Virus record (IMG/VR): IMGVR_UViG_3300031555_001876
Strand: one strand, 5' to 3'
Length of the DNA: 64,000 nucleotides
Source: a virus
A program made the position numbers and the translations under genes. A model generated the notes under the pieces. The model was not told the origin of the DNA and did no database searches. It worked only from the letters and a program-made list of their open reading frames with translations. The first letter of the stretch is position 1. Every line of letters begins with the position of its first letter. Shown in pieces: positions 1-64,000 of this stretch.

Positions 1-2
1 AG

Positions 3-776
3 CAAAAGGATAATACACAACATTCTATTGATGATTTAAAATTATAGGCTGAAACGGCAAGCAAGATTATTTATGATTAGGCTATGGAAACAATGTAGTT
101 ACAATTAGAATAGTCTGCTGAACGCGAAAGAGAAAAATTTGAAAAAGCGAAAGAAGAATATTTAAATGAATATCAATCAATGCTTGCTCTTGGAGTAGAA
201 GAGTACAATACCGCTATCGCAAATTTATAGTATGAAAAAATTCGACTTGAGGCCTCTATTGCTGATTCACGAAGTGTTGCAGATGCCGCAATTGCCGCAA
301 ACAAACGAGCCTATGAAATCCAATAGTAGAATGATTTTTACAAACTCAATCTCACTGAAAATGATTTAAATGAGATTAAAAAGTTAAAAGATATTATTCC
401 TTATTTGCGTGACCCAGAGGCTTTAAATAAAGTCATTTGGAAAGTTTATTATGAGAAGCCATATACTGATTTAATTGGTAGAGTAATTGGTACTGGCGTT
501 AAAACCGGTATTTATAAAATTACTAATACTATTAATCAAATGTGTTATGTTGGTTAGGCGGCTAATATATCCGATAGATGGAAACAACATATAAAAAGAG
601 GTATGGGTGCAGAAACTCCTACAAAAAATAAACTTTATCCTGCTATGTTAAAGGATGGAGTTGAAAACTTTACTTTTGAATTAATCGAGGAATGTGACCG
701 TTCCTTATTAAATGATAGAGAAGATTACTGGCAAGAATATTTTAAAGCGAAAGAGTTTGGGTATAGTATAAAATGA
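3..776 (+). CDS. GIY-YIG homing endonuclease-like protein, 5' partial (N-terminal coiled coil, C-terminal GIY-YIG); 8 in-frame TAG codons read as sense
   Basis: Frame 3 stays open from the window edge to TGA 774-776 only if TAG is sense. Motifs GIYKITN..YVG(TAG)AANISDRWKQH..ENFTFELIE are present. One TAG sits exactly at the conserved Gln of YIGQ. The stop overlaps the next ATG (ATGA). Confidence 0.55.
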
Positions 777-1054
777 TTAGAATTATTGAGAATAGAGATA
801 CAGGTAAGACTCGTAGATTAATGGAAGAGTGTGCTAAAGTAAATGGTGTATTTGTTTGTTTTAATCCTTATCGAATGATTGAAAAAGCAAAAGCATATGG
901 ACTTACTGGTTTTGATATTATTTCTTATCGTGAGTATATGAATGATATTAATGATTATACAAATTCTAAATGTTTTATTGATGAACTAGAACTATTTATT
1001 TATGAAGCAAGTAATGGAAATAATTTAAGTGGTTATACAATCAGTTTGGAGTAA
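773..1054 (+). CDS. hypothetical protein (93 aa)
   Basis: ORF with no in-frame TAG. Its start is coupled to the upstream stop by an ATGA overlap. Confidence 0.4.
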   Translation: MIRIIENRDTGKTRRLMEECAKVNGVFVCFNPYRMIEKAKAYGLTGFDIISYREYMNDINDYTNSKCFIDELELFIYEASNGNNLSGYTISLE

Positions 1055-1060
1055 TAAAAA

Positions 1061-1882
1061 ATGAAATTTGAACATATTGAAGTATTTAATTTTGAAAATG
1101 CTTTAAGAGGTATGCGTAATCCTCTAAATTCTTGGGATCGTATTGATTCTTTATTTGGCGTCGGCGCGCACGAAGAATATGCTGATGCTGTTGGAACTTG
1201 TATTTCTAAATGGTATCCCGAAGAAGAAAATCTTGATTAGGCTATTATTGACCATTTTTGGGATAATGGTATTCTTCGTTTTACTAACCCTAATGACCAT
1301 ATTGAATGGGCTTTAATCGGTCCAAAAGATATGAAGACTGCTACCGGATTGATTCATCTCGGCCCCGAGCACCGCAAGTTTATGCGTCAGATTATGGTAA
1401 CTGTTGACATCACTGCCCCACTCTACTGGTGGAAGGAATTTGACACCTACAAAATCGGCACTACTGCTAATAGCACATCTACAATGCATAAAATGTTAGC
1501 AAAGCCTATTACTTTGGATTGTTTTGAGATTGGTGATTTTACCAATTTACCTTATCCTGTTGAAATGCAGAGAGAAGAAATTAAGAGTCCTTGTGATACC
1601 GATTTTGTTCAGATGTGCTTGATTCCTTATTTGGAATATTTGCGCCAGACCGCAATTAATTGCAAAGATGCTGGCGATGAAGAAACTCAAAAGATTTATT
1701 GGAAGGAACTGATTCGTTGGCTTCCTGAATCTTGGCTGCAAACAAGAACAGTTACTATGAATTATGAAAATTTAAGAACTATGTATCATCAACGTAAAAA
1801 TCATAAATTAGTTGAATGGAATACAGATTTTATTAATTTTATTAAATCTTTGCCTTACGCAGATGAATTTATTATTAATTGA
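1061..1882 (+). CDS. ThyX/Thy1-fold protein, divergent (flavin-dependent thymidylate synthase-like); one in-frame TAG at 1238
   Basis: Segment HLGPEHRKFMRQIMVTVDITAPLYWWKEF aligns by eye to ThyX HETPFEH..HVKAPIFVARQWFRHR. The catalytic RHR..S..SxRY motif is not obvious. The N-terminal 90 aa upstream of the track ORF 1331..1882 is in frame through the TAG. Confidence 0.4.
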
Positions 1883-1907
1883 TTTTTATAAAAAAATATG
1901 ATATAAT
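1879..1907 (+). promoter_or_regulatory. sigma70-like promoter TTGATT-N17-TGATATAAT
   Basis: -35 at 1879-84; extended -10 at 1899-1907. The same architecture recurs five times on the plus strand. Confidence 0.5.
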
Positions 1908-1947
1908 ATATTTACAAAGATATGAAAGTGAGTTAATAAAAATTATT

Positions 1948-3282: not shown

Positions 3283-4248
3283 ATGGCTATTGATTTATTG
3301 GCTATTCAGCCTCATAAGGTTTCTCGTGATTTAAGCGGCTATATTACTTTTGTATATGGCGCTTATAAGACTGGTAAGACCACTCTAGCAACTCAAATGG
3401 GTAAATCTCTGTTGCTTGCTTTTGAGCAGGGCTATAATACATTACCCGGAGTTTATGCACAACCAATTGCAAGTTGGGCTGAAATGAAGCAAGTTTATCG
3501 TGAATTAAAAAAGCCCGAAGTAAAAGCAGCATATAATGTTGTTGTTGTTGATGGTGTTGATATTGCTGCTGACCAGTGTACAAAATATATTTGTAACCAA
3601 AATAGCATTGAATCTCTTGGTGATTTAGCATATGGTAAAGGTTGGGCTAAATTTAAGACTGAATTTAATGAAGTATTCCGTGGATTAACTCAAATGGGTT
3701 ATGCTGTATTCTTCATTGGTCACGATAAGGAAGGTAAAGATGATAATGGTAATATTACCAATATTCGTCCTTTGCTTTCCAATAGTACAAGAGAAGTTAT
3801 TGCAGGTATGGCTGATATCTATGCTTATGCAAAACAATATAATAAGGCTGAAAATTCTGTTTTAGTTTTGCGCGACCCCACAGGTTTTATTGATTGCGGT
3901 TGCCGTTTTAAGTATGTACCTGAAATTATTCCTTGTAATTATGAAGCCTTAACTGAAGCAATTCTTAATGCTATTGATAAGGAAGCCGCAGAGCACGGTA
4001 ATAAATTTGTTACATCTGAACGTATGGCTGTAATTGAAGAAAAAACTTATGATTATGATTCTTTAATGAGTGAATTCCAGACATTGGTTGAGCGGTTAAT
4101 GACTGCTAATCAATCTAATGCTATTAAGATTACTTCAGTTGTCGAGAAGTATCTTGGTAAGGGTAAAAAGGTTGGCGATACAACCCCCGAACAAGCAGAA
4201 TTTATTCATTTAATTAATACTGAAATCAAAGAAGATTTGTTAAGTTAA
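3283..4248 (+). CDS. RecA-like P-loop ATPase (Sak4-like recombination/annealing ATPase)
   Basis: Walker A GAYKTGKTT and Walker B VVVVDGVD are present. Size and context are typical of phage Sak4-family proteins. Confidence 0.5.
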   Translation: MAIDLLAIQPHKVSRDLSGYITFVYGAYKTGKTTLATQMGKSLLLAFEQGYNTLPGVYAQPIASWAEMKQVYRELKKPEVKAAYNVVVVDGVDIAADQCTKYICNQNSIESLGDLAYGKGWAKFKTEFNEVFRGLTQMGYAVFFIGHDKEGKDDNGNITNIRPLLSNSTREVIAGMADIYAYAKQYNKAENSVLVLRDPTGFIDCGCRFKYVPEIIPCNYEALTEAILNAIDKEAAEHGNKFVTSERMAVIEEKTYDYDSLMSEFQTLVERLMTANQSNAIKITSVVEKYLGKGKKVGDTTPEQAEFIHLINTEIKEDLLS

Positions 4249-4253
4249 ATTTT

Positions 4254-4294
4254 ATCAACCCAAGACCTAAAGTGCCTTGGGTTGATTTTTTTTT
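4254..4294 (+). terminator. rho-independent terminator
   Basis: Stem ATCAACCCAAG / CTTGGGTTGAT followed by T8. Confidence 0.6.
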
Positions 4295-4310
4295 AAAATT
4301 ATGATATAAT
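4282..4310 (+). promoter_or_regulatory. sigma70-like promoter TTGATT-N17-TGATATAAT
   Basis: -35 at 4282-87; -10 at 4302-10. It lies immediately after terminator 4254-4294. Confidence 0.5.
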
Positions 4311-4503
4311 ATTTATATAAAGTACATTTTGAAAGGAGTGTTCCGACATCCCACATCCAGTAAAATGTTTTTATTGTGGTATTCAATTTGATAGAGATAA
4401 ATATCCTTTTGTTTAGATAAATGCTCGTCGGTATGCTCACGCAGAATGCGCCGATGGTGAAGAGGCTAAAAAGGCTATTCAAGAGCAAAAAGATAAAGAA
4501 GCA

Positions 4504-4866
4504 ATGGAAGAATATATTAAAAAATTATTAAATATATCTGCTTTAACTCCAAAAATAAATAAGCAAATATTAACATATAAAAATGATTATAATTATTCTT
4601 ATTCTGGCATTCATAAATCTTTGACTTATTTCTATGAAATAAAAGGGAATGATGTTTCTAAAGCAAATGGTGGCATTGGTATAGTTCCATATGTATATAA
4701 ACAAGCACTCGATTATTATTATGCACTATGGGAAGCCAAGCAAAAGAATGAAACAAAAATTGAAGTAATCAATTCTTATATTCCACAAATTAAAGAGGTT
4801 GTTATAAAAAGACCTCAATTAAAACCAAAACGAAAAGAATTATTTACTTTTCTTGACGAAGAATAG
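4504..4866 (+). CDS. hypothetical protein; a possible N-terminal Zn-ribbon extension (4333-4503) lacks a canonical start codon
   Basis: ATG 4504 is the first canonical start. The same frame is open from 4333 and encodes CFYCG..16 aa..HAEC. The terminal TAG 4864-66 may be sense, in which case the gene extends to TAA 4885-87. Confidence 0.35.
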   Translation: MEEYIKKLLNISALTPKINKQILTYKNDYNYSYSGIHKSLTYFYEIKGNDVSKANGGIGIVPYVYKQALDYYYALWEAKQKNETKIEVINSYIPQIKEVVIKRPQLKPKRKELFTFLDEE

Positions 4867-4876
4867 GAAGTGAATA

Positions 4877-7800
4877 ATGAGTAGTAAATATGTTGACCCC
4901 ACTGCTATTATGCAAGTTATTGGGTGCGTTTATAATAATCCACGATTGTTAGATTATACAGATAAATATACAATAACAGATGATGATTTTCCTGATACAT
5001 TTCATAAAACAGTGTTTGGATGTATATATAAACTTTATGAATTGGGTTCAAAGAAAATTACTTTGGAAAATATATCCGACTTTTTGGATACTCGTCCTAA
5101 AAGTCAAGCAATATATAAACAACAAAAAGGCGAAGAATGGTTATTAAAAGTAAGTGAAAATGCAAATCAATTAACTTTTGATTATTATTATGGACGAATG
5201 AAAAAAATGTCTTTACTTCGTGCATATGATAATTATGGTGTTGATGTGAGCGATATTTATGACCCTGATAACATTCTTGATACTAAAAAGAAACAATTGC
5301 AAGAAGATAATCTTGATAATTCTACATTAGATGAAATTGCTAATAAAGTCGATATGAAAATTGATTCTATTAGACTTCAATATGTAGATAATGTTTTTGG
5401 TAAAGCCCAACAAGTTGGTAGCGGCATTTTTGATTTAATTGAGCAATATAAGCAGAATCCAGAAGTAGGTATTCCTCTTTATGGTCCATTGATTAATACA
5501 GTTACTCGAGGTGCTAGACTAAAGAAATTTTATTTGCGGTCGGCGGCAACCGGAGTGGGGAAAGCAATCCCTAATAACACTTTAATTCCTACTCCTGCTG
5601 GATGGAGAAAAGTTGGAGATATTAGACCCGGAGATAAATTGTTTGGGCAAGATGGAAAAGAAACTATTGTTCTTCAAATTCATCCTCAGCCGCAGGAGAA
5701 AGAAATTTGGAAAGTAACTTTTGCAGATGGAAGAATTGCGGAATGCTGTGGAGAGCATTTATGGGAATATTGTTATAAATCTCATAGGGGATATAGTTAT
5801 AGAGTTGAAGATATTCAAACTATTTATAATAGAACACTTACATTAAAAAATGGTTTAAAAAACAGTGATGGAAAAGGATATAGATTTCATATTAAACTAA
5901 ATAATCCTGTTGAATATGAAGAAAAGCAATATTATCTTCCTCCTTATGTAATGGGTGCTCTACTTGGTGATGGCAGTTTTAGATATAATAATACCAATAA
6001 ATCTCTTGAATTTTCTTCGGCAGATGAACAAATTCCTTCTTTAATTGCTATTGCTCTTGGAAGCAACTGGCAAAAAGGAAAAGTCCATACCATTTATGCT
6101 AAAAAAAGTTCAGAAAATAATTATAGTTGGACTTTTAGAGATAAAGAAAATCCTACTCATCCTTTTTGGGTAGAAGAAATGCTAAAAGATTATCCTAAAC
6201 TTTGGAATGTTAAATCTGAAGATAAGTTTATTCCTAAAGATTATCTACAAGGTTCCATATTTCAAAGACAGTGTTTATTGCAAGGACTTATGGACACAGA
6301 TGGTTCAGTTGATGAAAAAGGTAGAACTTCTTTTACAACTATTAGTCCTCAATTAAGAGATGATTTTATTGAACTTTGTAGAAGTCTTGGTTTTATCGCT
6401 ACTTATTCGACAGACTTACGAGATAAATATTCAACAGGTGAATGTTATACAATTCATATTCAAGCCCCTAAAGAAATGAAGAAACATTTCTTTAGATTAC
6501 AAAGAAAACATAATATTATTAAAAATTATTTAGCAAATAATAAGCGAGAAGAACATAAAGACCATTTAGCAATTATAGATATTGAAAAAACTACTGAATT
6601 ATCAGATATGACTTGTTTTACAGTAGATAATGATAATCATCTGTTTTTAATGAATGATTTTATTGTTACACACAATACTCGTTCAATGATAGCCGATGCT
6701 TGTTATATTGCTTGCGAAAAAATTTATGATGAAATGTTTGGATGGATTAAAACTGGTATAAGTGAACCTGTTTTATATATTGCTACCGAGCAAGATTTGG
6801 AAGAAATCCAAACAATGATGTTAGCATTTGTTTCCAATGTTAATGAAGAGCATATTGTTAATGGACAATATGAAGATGGTGAATACGATAGAGTTAAAGA
6901 AGCAGCGAAAATATTAACTAATTCTAAACTTTATCTTGAAGAATTACCAGACTTTTCTCTTCAAGATGTTGAAAATATTATTAAAAAGAATATTCGTGAC
7001 AATGATACTAAATATATATTCAACCCGAAAAGGGTGTTGGGATAATGAAACACTTTTCCACTAATCAGTGGGGTCTGCGAACTGGAAAATTTTGGAAATT
7101 CGCAGGCTAACGGGGAACCCTAAACGAGAAATCGCAAGGGAATCCCGTGGGAAATTTGGACGAAAATAGTCAATAACTTTTTGACTTCTTTCATACTAAA
7201 ATGAAAGAAGGCGATAAAATGGGTATTATTTATTGTTTTACTAATAAAATAAATAATAAAAAATATATTGGATAGACTATTAATCCTAAATAGCGATATA
7301 ATGCTCATAAAAGCAATTATCAAAATAGTAATAATTAGGAATATAATTCTTTGCTTCATAGAGCATTTAGAAAATATGGCTTTGAAAATTTTGATTATGA
7401 AATCTTATCCAAAGATATAGATGATATAGATTTATTAAATAAATTAGAAATATTTTATATCACTAAATTTAATACAAAAGCCCCAAATGGTTATAATGTT
7501 GAGAGTGGAGGAAAAAATGCTCCTAAACCTAAAACATTAGAACATAAGAAAAAAGAAATTTGGGGTTAGGCTAAATTAACAGAAGAAGAAGTTATTGAAC
7601 TGCGAAAAGCATATAAAGCCAAGAAAAGTCCAACTGAAATTTATAATAAGAAATATAAAAATAGATTACATTATAATTCTTTTTTAAATATTTGGTCTGG
7701 ACGTAGATATGGATTAATTATGCCAGAAGTTTTTGAAAAAGGACGTCATACTAAATTAACTGCTGATATAGTAAAAAAAATAAGAAAAGATAAAGAAACT

Positions 7801-8572: not shown

Positions 8573-8825
8573 AGGAAAAAGAATTTTAATTAATCCAGTT
8601 GATGATTATAAAGGAGATATTTTTGTTATGAATGTTGCTAAACTTGGCACACTTCACGAAAAGGCAGGTTATATTGAATATAAAATGCCTTACGCTCTTG
8701 CCAAAGCATATTTGAATATGCGTAAAGAAAGTGAAAAGAAACTTCATCCTTCAGTTTACTTGGCAAAAGTTGTTAATGAAGAATTTGGTATTAAAGGCGA
8801 ATGTGTTAAGGTTATTCAGTATTAA
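8566..8825 (+). CDS. hypothetical protein
   Basis: ORF overlapping the helicase 3' end; the start was taken at ATG 8566. Confidence 0.3.
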
Positions 8826-14477: not shown

Positions 14478-14493
14478 GAGGAGGAAGTAGACC

Positions 14494-42987: not shown

Positions 42988-43099
42988 ATTTTACCTCCTT
43001 TATCTCATATTATCTATTTAAATTTAAAAAATAACTTTCTATAATGTGCGATATTTGCCCAAAAAGAAAAAGGATAAGGGTATATTTATACCCTTATCC

Positions 43100-55440: not shown

Positions 55441-56508
55441 TTATTTATCCATTTTATCTAAAGCTTTTATAGATATTCTTGTTCTATGAGTCTTAAAAGG
55501 CTATGACAAAGAACTAAATATTCCAGTATTTTCACCATTAATATAATCATCTAAAATGGATTGTGTACTAAATACTTTTATACTTCCATTTAAAGTTGAA
55601 TCGTTAACTATTAAGAAATCTACCATCTCTTTATTACTATTACTATCTAACAAACCCAATCCAACTAATTCATAAGTTGAATAAATATGTCCTAAATGTT
55701 TCAAAATTAAACTTTTATGTTCATTATGAAAATCATAACAATTTTTCATTCTATAATACTAATCATATATTCTTTTATAGCTATAATTTGTAACAGCTCC
55801 AACCACACTAGCATACATTCTAAAAGAATTTGTACGACCTAGTTTTGATGCCTCAAAATGTTTTGAATTTTTTAAAGAAAATCTAAATGCTTTTAATATA
55901 GAAAAAGCTCTCAAAGCTTTCGCACTAGCTTTATAATCAATATTTATATGAATATTAAAATTTGAACCAGCGAAATCGGTTTTTCCATATCTTTCAACTA
56001 AAGCTTGCCTTGTTAATGTGTTATAATTATTCTAATCTTCTTTTACTATATTTTGAATTTCCTTTTGATAATCAGTAATTCTTTTTTTAGTCCCATTTTT
56101 ATTTATATTAATAACAGCATTTGTTTTACCTAATCCACCTAAATTAAAGCTCCCCTATAAATCTTTTAACTATAATCCTTGGTCAAAAAACTATTCAGCA
56201 ATATTTTTATCTAAAATGCTAGCAATACTTAACATTAAAGCCTCAAATTCATTTTCTAATTTATCGCCAGCAATGTTAGCGCTACTTCCTTCATATAAAA
56301 ATAACTACTATCCACCCAATAAACTATTAACCCTTTCAGCTAAAAGTCTCATAATAGGGTCATTAGACTAATTAGCATATCTCAACTCATTTAAAAAATC
56401 TTCTAAAAACTAGGCAATATCACTTAAACCATTATTTCTAGAGTATTTTGTAGCTAAAGATGGATGAACTATATTTTCTAAAAAAAAATCTGTACTTATA
56501 GTAGCCAT
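55441..56508 (-). CDS. hypothetical tail-module protein (355 aa); ~10 in-frame TAGs
   Basis: ATG 56508 has RBS AAGGAG. The frame is continuous to TAA 55441 through TAGs. It includes track ORF 55501..55749. Confidence 0.35.
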
Positions 56509-56736: not shown

Positions 56737-57852
56737 TTAGCCAACGAAACTATTTTCGTGTAAGGGTTCATGGAAGGTCTGTGTACGAACCATATCAGTA
56801 GACAGAACATCTTCGATGACCTGGATAGCAGCCATAACTTTCTTGGTGCTATCGAAACGAGTATAGCCGGGGAAAGCGTCAAGAGTAAAGGTGAAGGTTG
56901 AGGGGTCACCACTGGAAGCCATAGAGAAGGTGAAGTTAGACTGTACCTTGCAGTTAGGAATGATAAATTCAGCAGGCAGGTCAACACCGTCTTGGTTACG
57001 GAACAGAGTGGAGGCTTCTAAATAGAAGTTGCCGCCGAAGGATTCAGCAGTAATTTCAATCTGCTTTACGTTGGAAGCCTTTTCAGTATAATAGTCAACC
57101 AAGAAAGTAGAAACACCCTGAACGAACATATTGCTCATTAAATATTCATCATTAATTTCAGTGAGATTATGAATCTTATAATCTTTATCATCCTGATTAA
57201 CATAATTATATTGAGATTCTTCAGAAGCATCTTTCTTCATAGGACTCTTTGGCTGAATAGTAATAGCATACTTTTCAGGTAATTTAGTTTCAGAAGCATC
57301 TTTAACATTTGCCCACTTGCTACCATCCCAATAAACTTCAACAGGGTCAGCAACTACAGGTAAATAAGGTTCAGAAACAACTTCACCATTTCTCATAGCC
57401 ATAACATAAACGTAAGACTCTTGTTTTAAATATGCTCCACCAATCTTGGGTCCCATATAAGGCTTCTGACTTAAATAAATAGTAACGCCAGCAGTCTTAT
57501 CTTCAGGGTTATAAGCAAAATCAGTAGTAGTTTCAGTAACGTGCTGCTTAATGGTGTTAGAAGAGTCGGCTTCAATCAGACCTGCGCCGGCCAGAATCAT
57601 CAGACCTTCAGGAGAAATCAGAGCATCTTCCATAGTGAAAGTTAAGGTCTTTTCGCCGTCCCAGGAAACTAAACGAGCATTGCCGCGTCCGCCCTGTGCA
57701 TAAACAGTGGTAGAAGCGCCTTCTAAAGTAGAAGTCTTTAAAGTATCGAAATACATAACGGGTTCATCTTTATAAAAGATTTTATGGCCAATTTTCATAG
57801 GAGCCTTGGCTTTTAATACGACGTCGCATATTTCGCGAATACCATATTTCAT
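56737..57852 (-). CDS. major tail (tube) protein; no TAG codons
   Basis: 371 aa. It has a strong RBS AAGGAGGAAAAATACTT, a GC-richer TAG-free coding sequence, and lies upstream of the chaperone/TMP region. The assignment is positional. Confidence 0.45.
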   Translation of the reverse strand: MKYGIREICDVVLKAKAPMKIGHKIFYKDEPVMYFDTLKTSTLEGASTTVYAQGGRGNARLVSWDGEKTLTFTMEDALISPEGLMILAGAGLIEADSSNTIKQHVTETTTDFAYNPEDKTAGVTIYLSQKPYMGPKIGGAYLKQESYVYVMAMRNGEVVSEPYLPVVADPVEVYWDGSKWANVKDASETKLPEKYAITIQPKSPMKKDASEESQYNYVNQDDKDYKIHNLTEINDEYLMSNMFVQGVSTFLVDYYTEKASNVKQIEITAESFGGNFYLEASTLFRNQDGVDLPAEFIIPNCKVQSNFTFSMASSGDPSTFTFTLDAFPGYTRFDSTKKVMAAIQVIEDVLSTDMVRTQTFHEPLHENSFVG

Positions 57853-57876: not shown

Positions 57877-58572
57877 TTAATGAATATTCTTCATCCAATT
57901 TTCAACTTTTTTGTCGCTTTTAGCGCCAGCAAGTTTTCCTCGGATATCAATATCCCAATTTATATATAACGAATATCTCTCAATTAAGTCATATAACTAA
58001 TACATTGTCAGATTAATACAATCTTCTAGTGACATTGAATTAAGCCCTACAGTAAGAGTGGAAAGATATTGGCTAAATATACTAACATTGGCAGAATCAT
58101 TTAATTCAGCCACACGTTTGCGCCCGCGCATAAGTTTTTCAGCAATCTCTTTTGCTTTCTTATTCGCAGGATTAAAAGTATCTTCTTTTCGTTTTTCGCT
58201 ATCAAAACAAAATACTTTTTCTAAAACTCCCTATAATATTTCAAAATTATCCTCGTCTATCATAGCACCTTCTGGCTAAACTATTAAAGAACGAGGAGTA
58301 AAAACTACTTTACTATTTGGGAATAATAAGGTCAATACTTGCTAAACAGCCGCTTTTTTATCAGCAGTCTATTCATCTTTCATAACCATCATAAATATCT
58401 AAAAATTATTCGTATCTTCCGGTATAGAATTGTCCATTAAAATACTTTTATTTATACATAAACATTGCGCGCCAGTTAAAAAATCTTGTTCACCAATTAA
58501 AGCAATTTCTTTCATTTTTGGCTAATGCACAACCAACTATAATTCGGGAATGGGTAAATCAGTCCCGCACAT
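57877..58572 (-). CDS. hypothetical tail protein (~231 aa); ~7 in-frame TAGs
   Basis: The frame is open between TGA 58609 and TAA 57877. Start candidates are ATG 58572 and 58596. Confidence 0.3.
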
Positions 58573-59176
58573 TAAACCTAATCTATAATCAATCATAAAT
58601 AGGCATTTTCATAAAATTTTCAAGAAACTGCTATTCATCCATTGGATTGGGCATAAATTTTTTATCTTCGCCACCGTGTACAACTCTATATCTTAAACAC
58701 ATACCTGCATATTCATCGTTTTCAATTAATTTAGAATCTAATGATAAAAATTCCATTTCACCCATATTAGTTAAATGCTTTTTATCAAGCATACTATCAA
58801 GTTCAGCCGCAATTCTAAAAGGTCTTAATTTAAAGTCTTTTAACATCCATTGGTCAACGTGACATATAATATCAAATTCAATTATATTATCTCTAAACTC
58901 TGGATTATAAGTTGTCTAAAAACCATCAAAATTAATTAATAAATAATTTTCTACTAATTTATCTACTTTAATTTTTGGAACAAATTTAATATTATTTTCA
59001 ATTAAACTTTGCATTTGTTCTTCATTTAAATCTTTACGATTTAATGCATCTGGCGTGTTATAATATAATAATTTTTGTAAACTACGATTTTCAAAAATTC
59101 TATCCATAATCAAAGCCGCGTCTTTTTCAACTGATAAAAAACTTGATTGTGGATTTTTTACATTTACAATATTCAT
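58559..59176 (-). CDS. hypothetical head-tail joining-region protein (205 aa); 3 in-frame TAGs
   Basis: RBS AAAAGGAG precedes ATG 59176. The gene joins track ORFs 58631..58846 and 58916..59176 and ends at TGA 58559. Confidence 0.4.
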
Positions 59177-59197
59177 ACACCTTTTACTCCTTTTAAA

Positions 59198-60139
59198 TTA
59201 AAACAATGACTCAACTACAATAGTTTTCTTTATATCACCATAATATAAATCAAATTGTCCAGAATAAGAAGAACTCCATTTAATAATTATTTCTTTTCCT
59301 TTTGGAGCAGCCTAAATCGGCAATTTCTTATCCCAAGTCCAAGAGGAATCATTATTTCCTTGATAAGTATAAGTATGAGTTGTTTTAGGTTTTATAAAAG
59401 TATCTCCATCAATTAATTCAGTAATATTTGGGTCGTTCTATTCAGGAATTAAAGCACCCACTAAACCCTTTTCAATATCATCTTCGTGGTCATTTGAATA
59501 ATATTCAACGGCATTTACTTCTATAATTCCAGGAGTACTATATCTATCAACAGCCTCAATACGCCAACACACATCATCACCCTTTAAATAAAATTTAGTA
59601 TAACGCTAGAAGAATTTTTTATTTTCTTCATTATAAGGTACTAAAAAATTTAAAGAATAATTAGGATTGTCTATACTTATTTCGTGCTTTTGAATATAAT
59701 CTATTTTTGTTTCTACAGGACCTCTTAATGCCGCCATTGTGTTATGTAAACCATTATCGTCTTCCCAATTAATTTCATAACTACAACGTCTAATTTGTCC
59801 TCTAAAATAAGCCAATTCAGTCATATCTTGTAAATAAATTAACCAATAAGAATTAGTTCCAATCCATTCAAAAACATCACCGACTTGATAATTATATTCA
59901 TAACCTATAGAAATAATTTTATCATCATAGTCTTGTTTTAATTTATTAGGGTTAATTAAAGCCTTATATTGTAATTCATCGTTTAGTTTTTTTACATAAG
60001 CACCCTAATAAGAATAGTTAACTGCGCGGCTCAATGTTTTGCGCTTATCAATAATCATTCGCTCTTGCTATAAAGATGTAAAAACATCAGGATTTTGATA
60101 TTTATTTAACATCTCTGATTTAACTATTCTTTGTTTCAT
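59198..60139 (-). CDS. hypothetical virion protein (313 aa); 5 in-frame TAGs
   Basis: ATG 60139 overlaps the upstream TAA (TAATG). The frame is continuous to TAA 59198. It includes track ORF 59606..59824. Confidence 0.4.
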
Positions 60140-60453
60140 TAAATCTAAACTGTTAGCCAAGGTTTTAACCCCCTTAACAGGGTAATAGATTCAAAAACGG
60201 TTTTTCGATAAAAATCAAAATCCGTTTCAATATTTTTTAAACCTTCTAATTTACTTAATAAAATTAAAAAGTTTTCATCAATATTAAATATATGATAAAG
60301 ACCGGTAATTTCACAAATCACAGTATCTAACTGCAACTCCCAAGATTCTTCTTTTTCTCGCATTGGGATCAATTTCCATATTTGATTAGTTAGTCTATTT
60401 ATATTTGTCTGAAAATTTTCATCTTCAACAACAAAACCATATTTAGTCATCAA
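60139..60453 (-). CDS. hypothetical protein (104 aa); one in-frame TAG
   Basis: Track ORF 60145..60453 extends through TAG to TAA 60139. Confidence 0.35.
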
Positions 60454-61039
60454 GGGCGCTAACCTCCCTCAATACAGACCAGTTAGATTCTATATAACCA
60501 TCAGCAGTATATCTGCGACGTTTATATAAACGCTACATATGAAATCCCATTCTGCGAATTTCCGTTTTTAATGATAAAAGTTTTGCTAAATGATTTGCTT
60601 GGGAAGTCATTTTAAAATCACTTCCAGAGTATTTCATTCTTGTAACTTCTATCGAAGCAATCTAGCGATTTATCCAAGCCTCTTCCATAAGTAAGGCCAA
60701 GATATTCATTTCTTCATCATTTAAATCAGCATTAAAATAAGAAGTATTCTACGGAGAGAATACTTCTTCAAAGGCTTCATCTATATCTCCACCATCTAGA
60801 ATTCCATCAGGTGTTAAATCTTTTATTGCGCCGCCATCTATAGCGTCTCTGATTGCGTTAGGCGCATCCAATCCGCTTAACACATAATCTAATCTTTTAC
60901 GAGGAAATTCAAAGCCTGGAATTGCATCAATTAATAATTGACGCATATCTTGTAAAGTATCTTGAGGAGTTAATTCTAAATACATATCATCGGTAATTTT
61001 ACCTAGAAATCTTTCATATATATAAAAGAAAGATGTCAT
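60425..61039 (-). CDS. hypothetical head-tail connector-region protein (204 aa); 3 in-frame TAGs
   Basis: RBS AAGGAGG precedes ATG 61039. The frame is continuous to TGA 60425. Confidence 0.4.
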
Positions 61040-61059: not shown

Positions 61060-61629
61060 TTATTCAGCCTTACTTACTACATTATATTTAGTAGTGGTTC
61101 TGCGGCGAGTAGGAGCCTCTTCAGTCTTAACACGACGTTCGAAAGCCGCAGGTTCGATTTGTCCAGCCTTACTTTCAGCCTTTTCTGCTTCTAAATTCTT
61201 TAAAGCAGTATCAACGTCAAATCCAGTCTTTTCTTTTAAAGCATTGCGCTTATCATAATCCATCAAAGGGACTGAAACCGCAAATTGCTTTAATAAATCA
61301 ATTACTCCAATAGGAGCAAAATCTAAACAATCTAAAAATGCATCTAAAGAGCCATTTTTAATCAAATTAACAATATCTGCTTCGCTCATATAGTATTCAT
61401 TTTCAGGTTGAATGTTTAATTCTTGGATTGCAGCATTTTCAGTAATTTGTAAAAAATTACGCATTAAAGTAGTACCGCCTTGTTGATAACTTAATTTTAA
61501 AAGTTCAACACAAGGAATTCTTTTAGTTTCACCAGGCTGAAATTCTCTACGAATACCATCTTCTCTGATATTATAAACAACCATACTGGAACTTCTATTC
61601 TTTACATTGACAATTCTATTTTCATTCAT
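61060..61629 (-). CDS. hypothetical virion protein (189 aa); no TAG
   Basis: ORF immediately downstream of the capsid gene. Confidence 0.35.
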   Translation of the reverse strand: MNENRIVNVKNRSSSMVVYNIREDGIRREFQPGETKRIPCVELLKLSYQQGGTTLMRNFLQITENAAIQELNIQPENEYYMSEADIVNLIKNGSLDAFLDCLDFAPIGVIDLLKQFAVSVPLMDYDKRNALKEKTGFDVDTALKNLEAEKAESKAGQIEPAAFERRVKTEEAPTRRRTTTKYNVVSKAE

Positions 61630-61714
61630 TTCAATAATCTCCTTTTACTCAAAAACAATAAGGGGATGGGGAAATCCCCATCCCCAAATAAAATATATAT
61701 TTAGTTAATTAAAA

Positions 61715-62854
61715 TTAGCCTTGAACGTCTCCGCCATCAACATCATCTTGAGAACCAGTGATGTTACCTGCGTAGTCACGAACATAACCAGTTACACCGT
61801 CTAAATGCCAGGTGACCATATCACCCAGTAATTCGGTGTCACAGTAGCAGCAAATGTTGTTAGCCAGCATTGCTAAAACGCCAACCTTCTTGTAAACGTG
61901 GATTTCACGAGACCAGTCATAGTTGTTATCGCGTTCAGCAACTAAAGTGCCGCCTTCAAAAGCGATCTTAACAGGCTTGCTGTCAGCGCAGGAAGGAATA
62001 ATCCAGCAATAACCGGGATCAATAACCTTGCGGCTATTGGTTCCATCTTCGAAGCCCTGCTCTAAAATAACAACCTTATGGCCCTTATAAGAAGCCAGAC
62101 GACCAGTTCTCCACAATTCATCCTTCATTGCTTCAGTATAACGCCAAGCATCTTTGGGAATCATACGGACAGCAAATTCATAAGTACAATAAATAGTAGG
62201 AGTACCATAAGCGCCAGCAATCATCAGTAACTTGTCGAAAGCAGCCTCATCGAAACCATTAGTAGCAACACGGTTTGCAGGAGGTAACTGATTAATAGAA
62301 GCCTTCAGAGCAGCAGCAACTTCTTTATAAATCAGTTCATCCATACCTTCCATAACAATGCGAGTGACAACAGAGAAGTCAACACGACCATCAAGGAATT
62401 CTTCGAAGCCGATTTGAGCGGCGCCGCCAATAGCACTAGTAGGTACCATAAAGGATTCTTCGCCAGCACTTAACTTAAATACTTCATAAACACCTGCTAA
62501 ACCAATGCGAGTAACGAACTGCTTTGCACGATGGTTGGAGCCGAGTTTTCTGCGGAAGACAGCACGGTCACCCTGTGCGAAAGTCTTAACTTCAGCAAAC
62601 TGGGCATACTGTTCTTCAACTTTCTTAGGAAGAACTTCATTTAAAGTTTCTTCAATAATAGAGAAAATCAGGTTCTTATTTTCACGATATAATGCATAAG
62701 TACCTGCTAATTCATTAAATTCCTGACGTAAAGTCTCATTTAAAGCCTCGTAAGACAGAGACTGTCCATCAAAACTGTAAGCAACAGGAGCAGAAGGGTC
62801 AGCCTTTGCGACCTGTTTGGCAAGAGCAACTAAATTATTTCTATCTAAAGCCAT
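61715..62854 (-). CDS. putative major capsid protein (379 aa); no TAG codons, GC-richer
   Basis: The call rests on size and position downstream of the scaffold-like gene, TAG-free codon usage and higher GC. No diagnostic motif was recognised. Confidence 0.35.
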   Translation of the reverse strand: MALDRNNLVALAKQVAKADPSAPVAYSFDGQSLSYEALNETLRQEFNELAGTYALYRENKNLIFSIIEETLNEVLPKKVEEQYAQFAEVKTFAQGDRAVFRRKLGSNHRAKQFVTRIGLAGVYEVFKLSAGEESFMVPTSAIGGAAQIGFEEFLDGRVDFSVVTRIVMEGMDELIYKEVAAALKASINQLPPANRVATNGFDEAAFDKLLMIAGAYGTPTIYCTYEFAVRMIPKDAWRYTEAMKDELWRTGRLASYKGHKVVILEQGFEDGTNSRKVIDPGYCWIIPSCADSKPVKIAFEGGTLVAERDNNYDWSREIHVYKKVGVLAMLANNICCYCDTELLGDMVTWHLDGVTGYVRDYAGNITGSQDDVDGGDVQG

Positions 62855-62872
62855 TTTTCTTCTCTCCTTTCA

Positions 62873-63670
62873 TTAAGCGATACGCATTAATTTAACACCG
62901 CGCTGATGGTCGGGCATAGTATAAACTTTAACAACCTGCCACTGGATAGAGCCATCGCCGGACTTGCTTAAAATACCATCAGCAGCACGAGGACTTAAAA
63001 CGTCACCGACTACTAATTCTTTTTCCATAACCATATTAGTGGTAAATAAATCACCAGGCATAGTCTTTAATACACGAGGAACCATAACAGTGCCTTCGGG
63101 CATTCTCTTTTCTCTATAAGGTCCTTCAATATGGAAAGGATCTTCATTATAATGTAATTCATAAGGATCGGTAGCAGCAGGAGCAGTAACCTTATCGAAA
63201 GGATAAACCTTACCATTTAATTCAATAGAACTATTGCCTTCTGCGTCGACGCCATTATAATATCTGGTCTGACGGTCCCAAGCAGTATCTAAATCAGCAG
63301 TGGGATTGCCATCCTTATCAACACCATAGCCAAATGGACTATAGATACGAGCGTTGTAATTGTGCTTTAACATAGCAAATTCGCAATCCATCTGCATTGG
63401 GTCACGATATAACTTAATTTCATTAAAGACCATCATCCACTCGCCTGCGCCAGTGAAGTTAACAACACCATTAGCATAGTCATACTTAACGAACTGACCT
63501 TGCTCTAAAATCTGAATATCTTTATTAGCAGGTAACTGTGCATAAACCTGACCATTGCGCTGTGCACTTAAATGGTTGGGTTCTACCTGACCGAAACCAT
63601 AATCAACATATCCGCCAGCGGCTTTAGAAGCCTGGGAGACGAAATGCTGACCAATGAAATCTTTTAGCAT
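62873..63670 (-). CDS. capsid-associated protein (265 aa; decoration protein or alternative capsid protein candidate); no TAG
   Basis: TAG-free ORF lying between the scaffold-like and 379-aa genes. Confidence 0.3.
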   Translation of the reverse strand: MLKDFIGQHFVSQASKAAGGYVDYGFGQVEPNHLSAQRNGQVYAQLPANKDIQILEQGQFVKYDYANGVVNFTGAGEWMMVFNEIKLYRDPMQMDCEFAMLKHNYNARIYSPFGYGVDKDGNPTADLDTAWDRQTRYYNGVDAEGNSSIELNGKVYPFDKVTAPAATDPYELHYNEDPFHIEGPYREKRMPEGTVMVPRVLKTMPGDLFTTNMVMEKELVVGDVLSPRAADGILSKSGDGSIQWQVVKVYTMPDHQRGVKLMRIA

Positions 63671-63689
63671 TTTATATGTCCTCCTTAAA

Positions 63690-64000
63690 TTAATTTAAAG
63701 TTTTCGCAACTGACATTGCTCTCTTAACCCAAGCAGGAGTAGAACTATCATCAGTATCAGTTAGATTAAAAGTAGTAGGTTTATTATCTTTCTTATCTTC
63801 ATCAAGATTGAAATTAACCTTGTTGCGAACACAAATAATAGAAAGTTTTGCTTCAATATCATCTAAAGAATAAGTATCAATATTATCAATAACTTCTTTC
63901 TTATCTTCATCAGAAAGCATATAGAAGTTTTCAATCATTGCTTCTTTTTCTTTCTTCTCAATTTTAGCCTTAAAATCTTTTAAAGAAGAAATTTCAGTTT
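63690..64000 (-). CDS. scaffold-like acidic coiled-coil protein, 5' partial (continues beyond the window end)
   Basis: The frame remains open upstream of ATG 63938 to the window edge (..TEISSLKDFKAKIEKKEKEAMIEN..). The C-terminal region is acidic, as is typical of scaffold proteins. Confidence 0.35.
   Translation of the reverse strand, partial: TEISSLKDFKAKIEKKEKEAMIENFYMLSDEDKKEVIDNIDTYSLDDIEAKLSIICVRNKVNFNLDEDKKDNKPTTFNLTDTDDSSTPAWVKRAMSVAKTLN

What the first reader, a model, noticed from the sequence alone, without database searches (positions are those of the whole stretch)
1..64000. TAG is a sense codon, most likely Gln (genetic code 15), and its density is strongly gene-dependent
Four independent GIY-YIG genes have TAG exactly where the conserved motif Y(I/V)GQT has Gln (555-557, 7273-75, 18614-16, plus the partial gene at 3..776). 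A paralog at 11704 uses CAA at the same position. With TAG as stop the late region breaks into more than 60 short fragments. With TAG as sense they join into TAA/TGA-terminated genes with RBSs and coupled TAATG/ATGA junctions: a 2878-aa TMP with ~52 TAGs, and proteins of 1071, 1044, 1182 and 985 aa. TAG is absent from nrdD, the polymerase, the intein-containing helicase exon, the major tail protein and the capsid genes. The TAG-free structural genes are visibly GC-richer. No suppressor tRNA is encoded in this window. The in-frame TAGs in early-region genes (RecJ, dut, RuvC, kinase) imply suppression is already available early.
Basis: partly seen in the sequence, partly recalled or inferred. 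Interest (0 to 1): 0.8.

Follow-up and report, generated by a model that had tools for sequence, protein, structure and literature searches.

The report
Phage that reads TAG as glutamine
This is part of a large tailed-phage genome in which the stop codon TAG encodes glutamine in about half of the genes; that kind of recoding is already known, but here the core replication genes and the most abundant virion proteins are consistently kept free of TAG.

Summary
Reading TAG as sense raises long-ORF coverage of the window from 63% to 96%, whereas reading TGA as sense gives only 67%. There are 207 in-frame TAGs in 32 of 58 genes.

TAG means glutamine. At 61 TAG sites that have aligned homologs, Gln is the commonest aligned residue at 25. 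That compares with 50% for the window's own CAA/CAG sites and 3% or less for any other residue (lnL Q -136, next K -199).

The cultured standard-code Enterococcus phage EF1 has single ORFs that match across many TAG positions, including the tape measure protein.

TAG density is strongly gene-dependent (chi2 = 155, df 45, p = 5e-14). The pattern recurs in about 60 TAG-recoded relatives. Major capsid, tail tube and two neighbouring genes use TAG for 1-3% of Gln codons, against 31-49% in adjacent genes. TGA-recoded relatives spare the same four genes.

The window has no tRNA. Close relatives carry a tRNA(CUA) in an array about 31 kb beyond the window's left end.

Corrections: three GIY-YIG genes, not four, have TAG at the motif. 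The claim that suppression is available early is not supported, because relatives have a nearly TAG-free early-like region.

Verdict: a new member of a known kind, close to the phAss-1/EF1 group.

The parts
46106..54742 (-). Tape measure protein, 2878 aa, 52 in-frame TAG (30% of its Gln codons)
   Evidence: and 44 give length and counts. A PhageMin_Tail Pfam hit lies on a fragment of the identical gene. Three collinear HSPs fall inside the single 2675-aa standard-code ORF of Enterococcus phage EF1 (93736-101763) and span 10 TAG sites.
32353..46057 (-). Five tail/baseplate genes: 32353-35568 (1071 aa, 17 TAG, type I dockerin domain), 35568-36272 (234 aa, 3), 36289-39423 (1044 aa, 12), 39439-42987 (1182 aa, 25), 43100-46057 (985 aa, 12)
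   Evidence: The 1044-aa protein aligns at both ends to one EF1 ORF (124486-127251). The 1182-aa protein aligns to EF1 122546-124399 across 4 TAG sites. Three of them have phAss-1 homologs.
57877..61039 (-). Head-tail connector/neck genes with TAG: 57877-58596 (8 TAG), 58589-59176 (2), 59198-60139 (5), 60139-60450 (1), 60443-61039 (3)
   Evidence: Orthologs in 54-61 TAG-recoded relatives use TAG for 31-49% of Gln codons. One EF1 HSP spans all 8 TAG sites of 57877-58596.
55441..56508 (-). 355-aa late gene with 10 TAG (67% of its Gln codons)
56737..57852 (-). Tail tube protein (YomU-like), 371 aa, 0 TAG, GC 0.40, CAG preferred (10 CAG, 3 CAA)
   Evidence: Pfam YomU_Tube on the identical protein and PHROG 2729 virion structural protein. 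Counts. TAG-free in 46 of 53 TAG-recoded relatives.
61060..63670 (-). TAG-free capsid block: 61060-61629 (189 aa), major capsid protein 61715-62854 (379 aa, GC 0.43), 62873-63670 (265 aa, GC 0.41)
   Evidence: Pfam YonB on the identical protein. tblastn matches an annotated major capsid protein of Bacillus phage PJN02 and is 50.6% identical to phAss-1. Counts. TAG makes up 1-3% of Gln codons in relatives.
29040..30264 (-). Two TAG-free, GC-richer genes of unknown function (140 aa and 255 aa; 11 CAG against 6 CAA in the larger)
   Evidence: PHROGs of unknown function.
3283..9925 (+). TAG-free replication genes: AAA_24 ATPase 3283-4248, DnaB-like helicase with LAGLIDADG intein 4877-7045 plus its C-terminal part 8156-8572, primase 8825-9925. 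The span also contains a small ORF 4504-4887 with 2 TAG and the GIY-YIG gene 7219-7896 with 4 TAG, neither of which is TAG-free.
   Evidence: Pfam. Counts. Primase and AAA_24 are TAG-free in 28 of 29 and 32 of 34 relatives.
15877..23921 (+). TAG-free Pol III alpha (15877-18375 and 19500-20876) and anaerobic ribonucleotide reductase NrdD (21666-23921). The GIY-YIG gene 18557-19381 and a kinase 21002-21586 lie between them; in the kinase all 5 Gln codons are TAG.
   Evidence: Pfam. Counts. P(0 TAG) is about 3e-4 each for Pol III and NrdD, given their Gln codon numbers.
10280..11617 (+). RecJ-like DHH exonuclease, 5 TAG
   Evidence: Pfam DHH. One EF1 HSP covers aa 20-420 and spans 4 TAG sites. 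TAG is present in 24 of 25 relatives.
14413..15666 (+). SF1 (PIF1/RecD-like) helicase, 3 TAG
   Evidence: Pfam AAA_30 and UvrD_C_2. EF1 HSP covers aa 23-415.
26511..27565 (+). dUTPase-like gene 26511-27083 (1 TAG) and RuvC-like resolvase 27080-27565 (3 TAG)
Evidence: Both names are inferred. 26511-27083 aligns under EF1's annotated dUTPase (127852-128649). All three RuvC TAG sites align to Gln in EF1. Counts.
3..776 (+). GIY-YIG endonuclease, partial at the window edge, 8 TAG including 555-557 at the YVG_ motif
   Evidence: Pfam GIY-YIG, sequence. The full-length 332-aa product is called on other contigs.
7219..7896 (+). GIY-YIG endonuclease between the two helicase parts, 4 TAG including 7273-7275
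   Evidence: The motif TAG aligns to Gln in two EF1 paralogs.
18557..19381 (+). GIY-YIG endonuclease between the two Pol III alpha parts, 1 TAG (18614-18616)
   Evidence: It aligns to Gln in EF1.
11704..12360 (+). GIY-YIG paralog with CAA (11761-11763) at the motif, 0 TAG
23996..24934 (+). Fifth GIY-YIG gene; AAA (Lys) at the motif position, 4 TAG elsewhere

Best explanation
The window is 64 kb of a roughly 150-190 kb siphovirus-type phage genome of the phAss-1 / Enterococcus EF1 / SPbeta-like group that uses genetic code 15.

**Decoding.** TAG is decoded as glutamine by a phage-encoded amber-suppressor tRNA(CUA). That tRNA lies outside the window, in a tRNA array upstream of the replication module. 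TAA and TGA remain the only terminators.

**Extent of recoding.** It is partial. 55% of genes carry TAG, and TAG supplies 25% of all Gln codons.

**Why density differs between genes.** I infer two separate selective constraints acting against a background of drift towards TAG in an AT-rich genome.
1. Genes whose products are presumably needed before the suppressor has accumulated stay readable in standard code. These are the helicase, primase, Pol III alpha, NrdD and, in relatives, a block of small early-like ORFs.
2. The most abundantly made virion proteins avoid TAG. These are the major capsid protein, the tail tube and two capsid-adjacent genes. Read-through in competition with release factor 1 would be slow and would yield truncated product. 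The same genes carry an expression-type codon bias (G-ending codons, CAG over CAA) even in standard-code relatives.

Low-copy virion proteins (tape measure, baseplate and tail proteins, portal and terminase in relatives), homing endonucleases and some DNA-metabolism enzymes tolerate or accumulate TAG.

**Shown.** Sense reading, Gln identity, the heterogeneity and its conservation, tRNA(CUA) in relatives.

**Inferred.** Presence of the tRNA in this genome, the timing of expression, the cost of suppression.
For: - **Coding density.** 63% rises to 96% with TAG as sense; TGA as sense adds only 3 points.
- **Continuity.** Single EF1 (standard code) ORFs and HSPs span 1-8 TAG sites each in RecJ, kinase, RuvC, TMP, baseplate and neck genes.
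- **Gln identity.** (lnL Q -135.9, K -198.5, E -209.3). RuvC shows 3 of 3 TAG sites aligned to Gln.
- **Heterogeneity.** chi2 = 155, df 45, p = 5e-14. P(0 TAG) is about 1e-4 to 3e-4 for helicase, Pol III and NrdD.
- **Conservation.** In about 60 TAG-recoded relatives, MCP, tube and the genes at 61060-61629 and 62873-63670 use TAG for 1-3% of Gln codons. Five neighbouring neck genes and the TMP use it for 31-49%. The replication module shows the same stability.
- **Codon bias independent of recoding.** The same four genes have CAG/(CAA+CAG) of 0.61-0.83 in standard-code relatives, against 0.20-0.30 in their neighbours.
- **Second recoding, same pattern.** In TGA-recoded relatives these four genes have TGA/(TGA+TGG) = 0.00, against 0.08-0.55 in their neighbours.
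- **Suppressor.** tRNA(CUA) with encoded CCA and G73 sits in tRNA arrays of three close relatives: L257 5261-5335, L259 3416-3490, L262 4532-4606. One of these contigs has an MCP 81% identical to the window's.
- **Early-like block in relatives.** TAG makes up 2-3% of Gln codons in the two cleanest loci (L131 2/64, L133 1/65) and 9-12% in three others (L132 6/53, L136 7/80, L137 8/68). The structural operon of the same genomes has 32%.
- **Literature.** The same scheme (code 15, Sup-CTA tRNAs, long TMP) is described for phAss-1 (PMC10607447) and, in general, in bioRxiv 10.1101/2021.08.26.457843. Gln at TAG has been shown by proteomics in crAss-like phages (PMC9523058).
Against: - No tRNA(CUA) is present in the 64 kb, and the rest of this genome could not be retrieved.
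- Among the relatives where the array region was fetched, only 3 of the 5 loci that held any tRNA showed a CUA tRNA. A sixth locus, L258, which reaches its contig end, had no tRNA at all.
- No expression data exist, so 'before the suppressor accumulates' and 'abundant' rest on general phage biology.
- RecJ, kinase, RuvC, dUTPase and an SF1 helicase carry TAG and sit among TAG-free replisome genes on the same strand. A clean early/late boundary is therefore absent.
- The holin (31947-32336) is TAG-free, unlike the preferentially recoded lysis genes of crAss-like and Agate phages. It has only four Gln codons, so this carries little weight.
- TAG is only weakly enriched near gene starts (KS p = 0.026).
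- How a CUA tRNA would be charged with Gln in a likely Firmicute host was not examined.
Confidence: 0.82

Rival explanations
1. Pure timing switch (the Borges model). TAG codons exist mainly to block translation of late and lysis genes until the suppressor tRNA is made, and gene-to-gene differences reflect only expression class.
For: - The late (-) module has 1.43 TAG per 100 codons, against 0.53 in the (+) replication module.
- The core replisome, and the early-like ORFs of relatives, are nearly TAG-free.
- The median position of the first TAG is codon 27, and TAGs are slightly enriched in the first fifth of genes.
- Homing endonuclease genes carry TAG, as reported for an intron endonuclease in Agate phages.
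Against: - The most typical late genes (major capsid, tail tube and two neighbours) are TAG-free. They sit inside the TAG-rich late operon, and this holds in 46-56 of 53-64 relatives.
- TGA-recoded relatives spare the same genes. A timing gate does not predict that.
- The holin has no TAG.
- Several DNA-metabolism genes in the replication module do have TAG.
Confidence: 0.3
2. Mosaicism. The TAG-free, GC-richer capsid and tube genes were acquired recently from a standard-code phage and have not yet accumulated TAG.
For: - Their GC content (0.40-0.43) stands out from the neighbours.
- Standard-code relatives exist with 80% identical MCP.
Against: - The same four genes, in the same order, are GC-richer and CAG-preferring in standard-code, TAG-recoded and TGA-recoded relatives spanning 54-82% MCP identity. 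The composition is therefore an old property of the gene class, not a recent import.
- TAG-free status holds across about 60 diverged TAG-recoded genomes.
Confidence: 0.07
3. TAG is a true stop. The 'late region' is a field of pseudogenes or short genes, or TAG is read as some residue other than Gln (pyrrolysine, Glu, Lys, Tyr, Trp, Leu).
For: - ARAGORN labels CUA tRNAs 'Pyl' by convention.
- At a minority of sites, Lys and Glu are the next most common aligned residues.
Against: - With TAG as stop there would be 176 fragments lacking their own starts and RBSs.
- Homologs in standard-code EF1 are continuous across the TAG sites.
- The likelihood favours Gln by 63 or more log units over every other residue.
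- Every gene ends in TAA or TGA and has a plausible RBS.
- No ORF in the window is the size of a synthetase, and none that I annotated is one; no search for pyl genes was run.
Confidence: 0.02
4. The host itself reads UAG as Gln, so the phage needs no suppressor of its own and TAG avoidance reflects only host codon preference.
For: - No tRNA in the window.
- Some recoded phages lack detectable suppressor tRNAs (PMC10607447; bioRxiv 10.1101/2021.08.26.457843).
Against: - Close relatives encode tRNA(CUA).
- The same clade contains standard-code and TGA-recoded members.
- Relatives have a nearly TAG-free early-like block.
- To my knowledge no bacterium with UAG = Gln is known, and the cited papers predict standard-code Firmicutes or Bacteroidetes hosts.
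Confidence: 0.03

Closest known systems
phAss-1 and the proposed Phassvirus group (Babkin et al. 2023, PMC10607447; GenBank OQ749652, NCBI 'Caudoviricetes code 15 clade')
   Same: - TAG-to-Gln recoding that breaks the TMP, tail and other virion genes under code 11.
- Very long TMP: 3149 aa there, 2878 aa here.
- Pol III alpha-type polymerase, NrdD and RecJ.
- Suppressor tRNA-CTA genes inside a tRNA array.
- Homologous MCP (50.6% identity), tube, neck genes and polymerase (39%).
- MCP and tube are annotated as unbroken CDS under code 11 in phAss-1 too.
   Different: - Only about 25-55% protein identity, and a rearranged gene order.
- phAss-1 has two Sup-CTA genes directly upstream of nrdD. The window has a kinase gene there and no tRNA.
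- The window has several GIY-YIG insertions and an intein.
- The window's closest relatives are IMG/VR contigs of 100-190 kb (up to 82% MCP identity), not the three Phassvirus genomes.
Alternatively coded phage clades of Borges et al. (bioRxiv 10.1101/2021.08.26.457843), especially the Firmicutes-infecting 'Agate' clade
   Same: - Large genomes (about 154 kb).
- Standard, TGA-recoded and TAG-recoded members within one clade.
- Recoding concentrated in structural genes and variable in replication genes.
- Homing endonuclease genes rich in the recoded codon.
- Suppressor tRNAs encoded by the phage.
   Different: - Membership could not be tested, because no Agate sequence was available.
- That study reports gene families preferentially enriched in the recoded codon (lysis genes, and a tail tube gene in crAss-like phages).
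- Here the tail tube and capsid genes are the ones systematically spared, and the holin has no TAG.
Enterococcus phages EF1/VRE9 and Bacillus SPbeta-like phages (standard code)
   Same: - Homologous replication module: Pol III alpha about 40% identical, RecJ, SF1 helicase, primase, NrdD.
- Homologous virion module: MCP 40% identical, YonB/YomU families, 2675-aa TMP.
- Genes split by homing endonucleases.
   Different: They use the standard code throughout. For that reason they served here as the reference for what TAG replaces.
TAG-recoded crAss-like and Lak phages (Ivanova 2014; Yutin 2021; Peters 2022, PMC9523058)
   Same: Code 15, suppressor tRNA(CUA), late-gene bias. Gln at TAG has been shown by mass spectrometry.
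   Different: - Unrelated virion and replication modules, and Bacteroidetes hosts.
- In those phages capsid proteins commonly contain TAG. Under code 11 the MCP was identified in only 57% of the genomes predicted to use code 15 (PMC11210395).

Membership tests
Genetic code 15 phage (TAG reassigned to Gln) | Coding density rises sharply and specifically when TAG is read as sense | tested here: met
   63.4% rises to 96.3% for TAG and to 66.9% for TGA.
Genetic code 15 phage (TAG reassigned to Gln) | In-frame TAG aligns with Gln in homologs that use the standard code | tested here: met
   40% Gln in standard-code relatives, against 47% for CAA. Gln is the per-site plurality at 25 of 61 sites, and the lnL margin is 63. 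In EF1, Gln is the top residue (16 of 67).
Genetic code 15 phage (TAG reassigned to Gln) | TAG-joined ORFs correspond to single proteins in relatives | tested here: met
   The EF1 TMP, baseplate, neck, RecJ, kinase and RuvC ORFs are continuous across the window's TAG positions.
Genetic code 15 phage (TAG reassigned to Gln) | Phage-encoded suppressor tRNA with CUA anticodon | tested here: inconclusive
   None in the window. Present in three close relatives about 31 kb beyond the window's left end. The rest of this genome could not be retrieved.
Genetic code 15 phage (TAG reassigned to Gln) | Gln-containing peptides at TAG positions | not testable with these tools
   Needs proteomics.
Code-switch model (standard-code early genes, recoded late genes) | A set of early genes free of the recoded codon | tested here: inconclusive
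   The core replisome in the window is TAG-free. Relatives have an early-like block where TAG makes up 2-12% of Gln codons. That block lies outside the window, and no timing data exist.
Code-switch model (standard-code early genes, recoded late genes) | Lysis genes preferentially recoded | tested here: not met
   The holin 31947-32336 has 0 TAG out of 4 Gln codons, so the power is low. The lysozyme-like gene 13043-13816 is TAG-free in 22 of 22 relatives.
phAss-1 / EF1 / SPbeta-like siphovirus group | Homologous MCP, tail tube, Pol III alpha and TMP longer than 2500 aa | tested here: met
   MCP is 50.6% identical to phAss-1 and 40% to EF1. The polymerase is about 40% identical. YonB and YomU families. 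TMP is 2878 aa.
Proposed genus Phassvirus | At least about 70% genome-wide nucleotide identity to phAss-1 and the same synteny | tested here: not met
   No megablast match of a 25-kb stretch (30001-55000, tail genes and TMP) to any phage record. Protein identities are 25-55% and the gene order is rearranged.
Agate clade (Borges et al.) | Terminase phylogeny placing it inside the clade | not testable with these tools
   No Agate sequences were accessible, and the terminase lies outside the window. The resemblance rests only on the description.
Genetic code 4 (TGA to Trp) | Coding density gain with TGA as sense, and TGA aligned to Trp | tested here: not met
   The gain is only 3 points, and 9 genes terminate with TGA. 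It is met by four relatives instead (L054, L062, L064, L077).
Pyrrolysine decoding of TAG | TAG at a few specific sites, with pylTSBCD genes | tested here: not met
   There are 207 TAGs in 32 genes, aligned to Gln. No ORF in the window is the size of a synthetase, and none that I annotated is one. No search specific to pylTSBCD was run.

The most novel reading that the evidence does not exclude
In this clade, reassigned stop codons are systematically excluded from the few most abundantly made virion proteins, whichever stop codon was reassigned (TAG to Gln in most members, TGA to Trp in others). Low-copy virion proteins next to them fill up with the reassigned codon. If so, suppression is costly, and recoding spreads mainly by AT-biased drift wherever selection on translation efficiency is weak. 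It would not have been built primarily as a timer for late or lysis genes. The same constraint would have shaped two independent code changes in parallel.
Probability: 0.45. Interest if true: 0.55.

Novelty: new member of a known kind. Interest (0 to 1): 0.35.

Why it matters
**Annotation.** Under code 11, about a third of this window dissolves into fragments. The tape measure, baseplate and neck proteins cannot be recognised, so any pipeline must call this clade with code 15.

**Biology.** The window adds a Firmicute-type, SPbeta/EF1-related lineage to the recoded phages. This clade contains standard-code, TAG-recoded and TGA-recoded genomes with alignable genes. That makes it a natural comparison for asking which genes may and may not accept a reassigned stop codon. 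The answer seen here is that the replisome core and the highest-copy virion proteins are spared under both reassignments. This bears on whether recoding is mainly a regulatory device or mainly tolerated drift.

Tried and rejected
1. Megablast of 25 kb of the late region against GenBank phages gave no match. Only distant hits were found.
2. Retrieving the window's own genome failed. Exact-protein look-ups returned only short contigs or none, so the rest of the genome remains unseen.
3. The tRNA search used seven scans of IMG/VR. No tRNA was found within 10 kb of the MCP homologs (60 of the 80 loci scanned).
4. None was found within 10 kb of the AAA_24 gene (34 loci).
5. None was found over about 28 kb to the right of the window's span.
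6. The first two steps to the left gave no tRNA(CUA) and almost no tRNAs. The array appeared only at the third left step.
7. The eighth scan, meant to fetch relatives of the 1044-aa tail protein, found nothing because the chosen fragment was too variable. Continuity of the tail genes therefore rests on EF1 and phAss-1 only, and the 1071-aa and 985-aa proteins have no standard-code homolog in hand.
8. Rfam at gathering threshold and at E<=1 found no tRNA and no group I intron. It returned only terminator-like hairpins.
9. A pattern search for suppressor tRNAs was dropped, because the three phAss-1 Sup-CTA genes share no usable consensus.
10. Pfam recognises almost none of the tail proteins.
11. 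The +4 nucleotide context of TAG does not differ from that of CAA/CAG (p = 0.24).
12. TAG sites align to CAA and CAG in standard-code relatives in about the same ratio as CAA sites do. No special origin of TAG from CAG could be shown.
13. A literature search for an earlier report of capsid or tube genes avoiding the recoded codon found none in the held library. That does not prove there is none.

Full report
**1. What is in the sequence**

The window is AT-rich (30.7% GC). It has two convergent modules:
- Plus-strand DNA-metabolism genes from 1 to about 28,080.
- Minus-strand virion genes from 28,124 to 64,000.
- One plus-strand LytTR-like gene at 31,200-31,904.

Under the bacterial code, ORFs of 100 aa or more cover only 63.4% of the window. 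Reading TAG as sense gives 96.3%. Reading TGA as sense gives 66.9%. So the effect is specific to TAG and is not what removing any stop codon would produce.

A code-15 gene list has 58 genes of 60 aa or more. All end in TAA (49) or TGA (9). Most have AGGAGG-like sequences upstream, and several are joined by 1- or 4-nt overlaps.

- TMP of 2878 aa with 52 TAG.
- Proteins of 1071, 1044, 1182 and 985 aa.
- No TAG in NrdD, Pol III alpha, the intein-bearing DnaB helicase, the tail tube or the capsid genes.

In all there are 207 in-frame TAGs in 32 genes. With TAG as stop, the late module alone would break into 176 pieces.

**2. TAG-joined ORFs are single proteins**

Enterococcus phage EF1 is a cultured phage that uses the standard code. 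It has homologs of much of the window.

Single tblastn HSPs run straight across TAG positions:
- Four sites in RecJ.
- Five in the kinase.
- Three in RuvC.
- Eight in the neck gene 57877-58596.
- Three in the 1044-aa baseplate protein.

The N-terminal, middle and C-terminal parts of the window's TMP align collinearly inside EF1's one 2675-aa ORF.

The 1071-aa and 985-aa tail proteins have no standard-code homolog in what I could fetch. The 985-aa protein has a phAss-1 homolog.

**3. TAG is glutamine**

A scan of IMG/VR with the major capsid protein returned 80 related loci with 54-82% identity. By coding density, most are TAG-recoded, eleven use the standard code, and four look TGA-recoded.

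Cell counts from the alignments:
- In the standard-code relatives, window TAG aligns to Gln in 40% of cells (CAA 60, CAG 22 of 206).
- Window CAA does so in 47% and window CAG in 66%.
- No other residue exceeds 7%.
- In TAG-recoded relatives, TAG aligns mostly to TAG (21%) and to CAA/CAG (24%).

To limit pseudo-replication I then counted each site once, using all fetched loci and EF1. Of 61 TAG sites with at least three aligned sense residues, Gln is the plurality at 25 (41%). The figure is 50% for the window's ordinary Gln sites and 0-3% for sites of any other amino acid. The log-likelihood is -135.9 for Gln, -198.5 for Lys and -209.3 for Glu.

The GIY-YIG argument is only a small part of this. 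TAG is at 555-557, 7273-7275 and 18614-18616 as stated, but the first lies inside the 'partial gene at 3..776'. So three genes, not four, have TAG there. One paralog has CAA and a fifth has AAA (Lys). EF1's GIY-YIG homologs carry Gln at that position in most of the pairwise alignments, and Arg in one.

**4. The density really is gene-dependent, and the pattern is inherited**

TAG supplies 25% of all Gln codons (207 TAG, 504 CAA, 123 CAG). Its share per gene ranges from 0 to 100%. Heterogeneity across genes gives chi2 = 155 with 45 df, p = 5e-14.

Two kinds of gene are spared.

*Replisome core.* This covers helicase, primase, both parts of Pol III alpha, NrdD and the AAA_24 ATPase. These genes are AT-rich and use CAA. 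The chance of zero TAG, given their Gln codon numbers, is 1e-4 to 3e-4 for each of the three largest.

*A few virion genes.* These are the tail tube 56737-57852, 61060-61629, the major capsid protein 61715-62854 and 62873-63670. The pair at 29040-30264 behaves the same way. Except for 61060-61629 (GC 0.33; 7 CAA to 1 CAG in this window), these genes are GC-richer (0.38-0.43) and prefer CAG.

This is not an accident of one genome:
- In 53-64 TAG-recoded relatives, the four capsid/tube genes have zero TAG in 46-56 loci. TAG supplies 1-3% of their Gln codons, against 31-49% in the five interleaved neck genes and the TMP.
- In the replication module, primase, AAA_24 and others are TAG-free in nearly all relatives, while RecJ carries TAG in 24 of 25.

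**5. What the relatives add about the cause**

In standard-code relatives the same four virion genes already show the G-ending codon preference. CAG/(CAA+CAG) is 0.61-0.83, against 0.20-0.30 in their neighbours, and GC3 is higher in three of the four. The composition therefore belongs to the gene class and is independent of recoding.

In the TGA-recoded relatives the same four genes have no TGA at Trp positions (0.00). Their neighbours reach 0.08-0.55. That argues against recent import of these genes. It also argues against a pure late-gene timer, since these are the most typical late genes.

My reading is as follows, and it is inferred, not shown. These are the proteins made in the largest amounts. 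Reading a stop codon in competition with a release factor is slow and wasteful, so selection keeps the reassigned codon out of them.

The TAG-free replisome genes do not share the G-ending bias. The better explanation for them is that they must be translated before the suppressor is plentiful.

**6. Where the suppressor is**

The window has no tRNA by ARAGORN or Rfam, even at E<=1. The window's own genome could not be retrieved, so I walked along relatives.

*To the right of the window's span.* The rest of the structural operon comes first, with genes of terminase and portal size (not annotated here) carrying 8-15 TAGs each. Then comes a divergent block of about 20 small ORFs. In L131 and L133 it has 1-2 TAG in about 2200 codons, so TAG supplies 2-3% of Gln codons there; three further loci give 9-12%. 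The structural operon of the same genomes has 32%.

*To the left.* The genes there include gyrase B-like, ligase and flotillin-like genes and a vault-protein-like gene. At the third step there is a tRNA array containing a tRNA with anticodon CUA in three relatives: L257 5261-5335, L259 3416-3490 and L262 4532-4606. In the contig whose MCP is 81% identical to the window's, this tRNA lies about 31 kb before the position that corresponds to window base 1. It has an encoded CCA end, G at the discriminator position and an unpaired 1:72. A normal tRNA-Gln(UUG) sits in the same array.

The distant relative phAss-1 carries three Sup-CTA genes, two of them directly upstream of nrdD. The window has a kinase gene at that place.

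It is therefore likely, but not shown, that this genome encodes its own tRNA(CUA) outside the window.

The TAG-bearing RecJ, kinase, dUTPase, RuvC and SF1 helicase are better seen as genes expressed once the suppressor is present.

**7. Comparison with what is known**

Reassignment of TAG to Gln in phages of standard-code hosts is established:
- The survey and code-switch model are in bioRxiv 10.1101/2021.08.26.457843.
- Proteomic proof exists for crAss-like phages (PMC9523058).

The closest described phages are phAss-1 and its relatives. That paper also places Enterococcus phage EF1 in the same monophyletic group and notes other recoded members (PMC10607447). NCBI already has a 'Caudoviricetes code 15 clade'.

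The window is not a Phassvirus. There is no nucleotide match, protein identity is 25-55%, and the order is rearranged.

By description it resembles the Firmicutes-infecting Agate clade: about 154 kb, all three codes within one clade, and recoded homing endonucleases. I could not test membership.

Gene-family bias in the use of the recoded codon has been reported. What was reported, though, is enrichment in lysis genes and, in crAss-like phages, in a tail tube gene. In other code-15 phages the capsid gene is often broken by TAG. The consistent sparing of capsid and tube genes under both TAG and TGA reassignment is a nuance I did not find described. It is a modest addition, not a new kind of system.

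**8. Verdict**

The finding is real and correctly interpreted in its main claims. It is a new member of a known kind.

Confidence that TAG is translated as Gln is above 0.95. Confidence that a phage tRNA(CUA) outside the window does the decoding is about 0.8. Confidence in the two-constraint explanation of the gene pattern is about 0.5.

Noticed in passing
L054, L062, L064, L077 (MCP-centred loci); L212: Some members of the same clade appear to have reassigned TGA to Trp instead. Coding coverage rises from 0.77-0.89 to 0.95-0.97 with TGA as sense. Window TGG aligns to TGA in 18% of cells, and TGA/(TGA+TGG) reaches 0.55 in the TMP ortholog. A separate relative, L212, which my coding-density rule left ambiguous, carries a tRNA(UCA). 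Standard-code members (e.g. L010-L013) have 80% identical MCPs.
   Followed up: partly
window 7046-8155, 11618-12763, 18376-19499: Three host genes are interrupted by about 1.1 kb insertions, each holding a GIY-YIG ORF: helicase, RecJ and Pol III alpha. phAss-1 has the polymerase as one ORF. Rfam finds no group I intron, even at E<=1, so it is open whether these are divergent introns or split genes. The last TAG of RecJ (aa 418) sits where homology to EF1 ends and may lie beyond the exon boundary.
   Followed up: partly
window 4877-7045: The DnaB-like helicase carries a LAGLIDADG/Hom_end intein (about aa 230-600) in addition to the GIY-YIG insertion downstream. That makes two different mobile elements in one gene.
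   Followed up: partly
window 32353-35568 (aa 364-410): The 1071-aa tail protein contains a type I dockerin domain (31.9 bits against a cut-off of 22.9). This hints that the phage may attach to cohesin-bearing surface scaffolds of a cellulosome-producing Clostridia host. A relative also encodes an SLH-domain protein (L257 9566-10723).
   Followed up: no
L218 1994-6613 (relative, left of the window's span): Next to the tRNA array, relatives encode an 833-aa protein with major-vault-protein shoulder and repeat domains and a 518-aa DUF2828/DUF7788 protein, both TAG-free. Flotillin/SPFH, gyrase B-like and ATP-dependent ligase genes lie nearby.
   Followed up: no
window 31947-32336 and 13043-13816: The predicted holin has no TAG. 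A signal-peptide-bearing lysozyme-like gene sits inside the replication module and is TAG-free in all 22 relatives. This differs from the preferential recoding of lysis genes reported for crAss-like and Agate phages.
   Followed up: partly
window 31889-31963 and 56514-56591: Strong hairpins lie between convergent genes and just downstream of the tail tube gene. They scored as spurious Thr_leader and miRNA hits in Rfam and are probably transcription terminators.
   Followed up: no
window, all TAG-containing genes: TAGs are mildly enriched in the first fifth of genes (53 of 199; KS p = 0.026), and the median first TAG is at codon 27. In the kinase 21002-21586 all five Gln codons are TAG.
   Followed up: partly
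L084-L093 (short contigs carrying the identical 93-aa protein of window 773-1054): Public gene calls disagree on the same DNA. ENA and Logan records call the neighbouring GIY-YIG gene as one 332-aa product. JGI records split it into fragments of 32-57 aa. This shows the annotation damage done by code 11.
   Followed up: no
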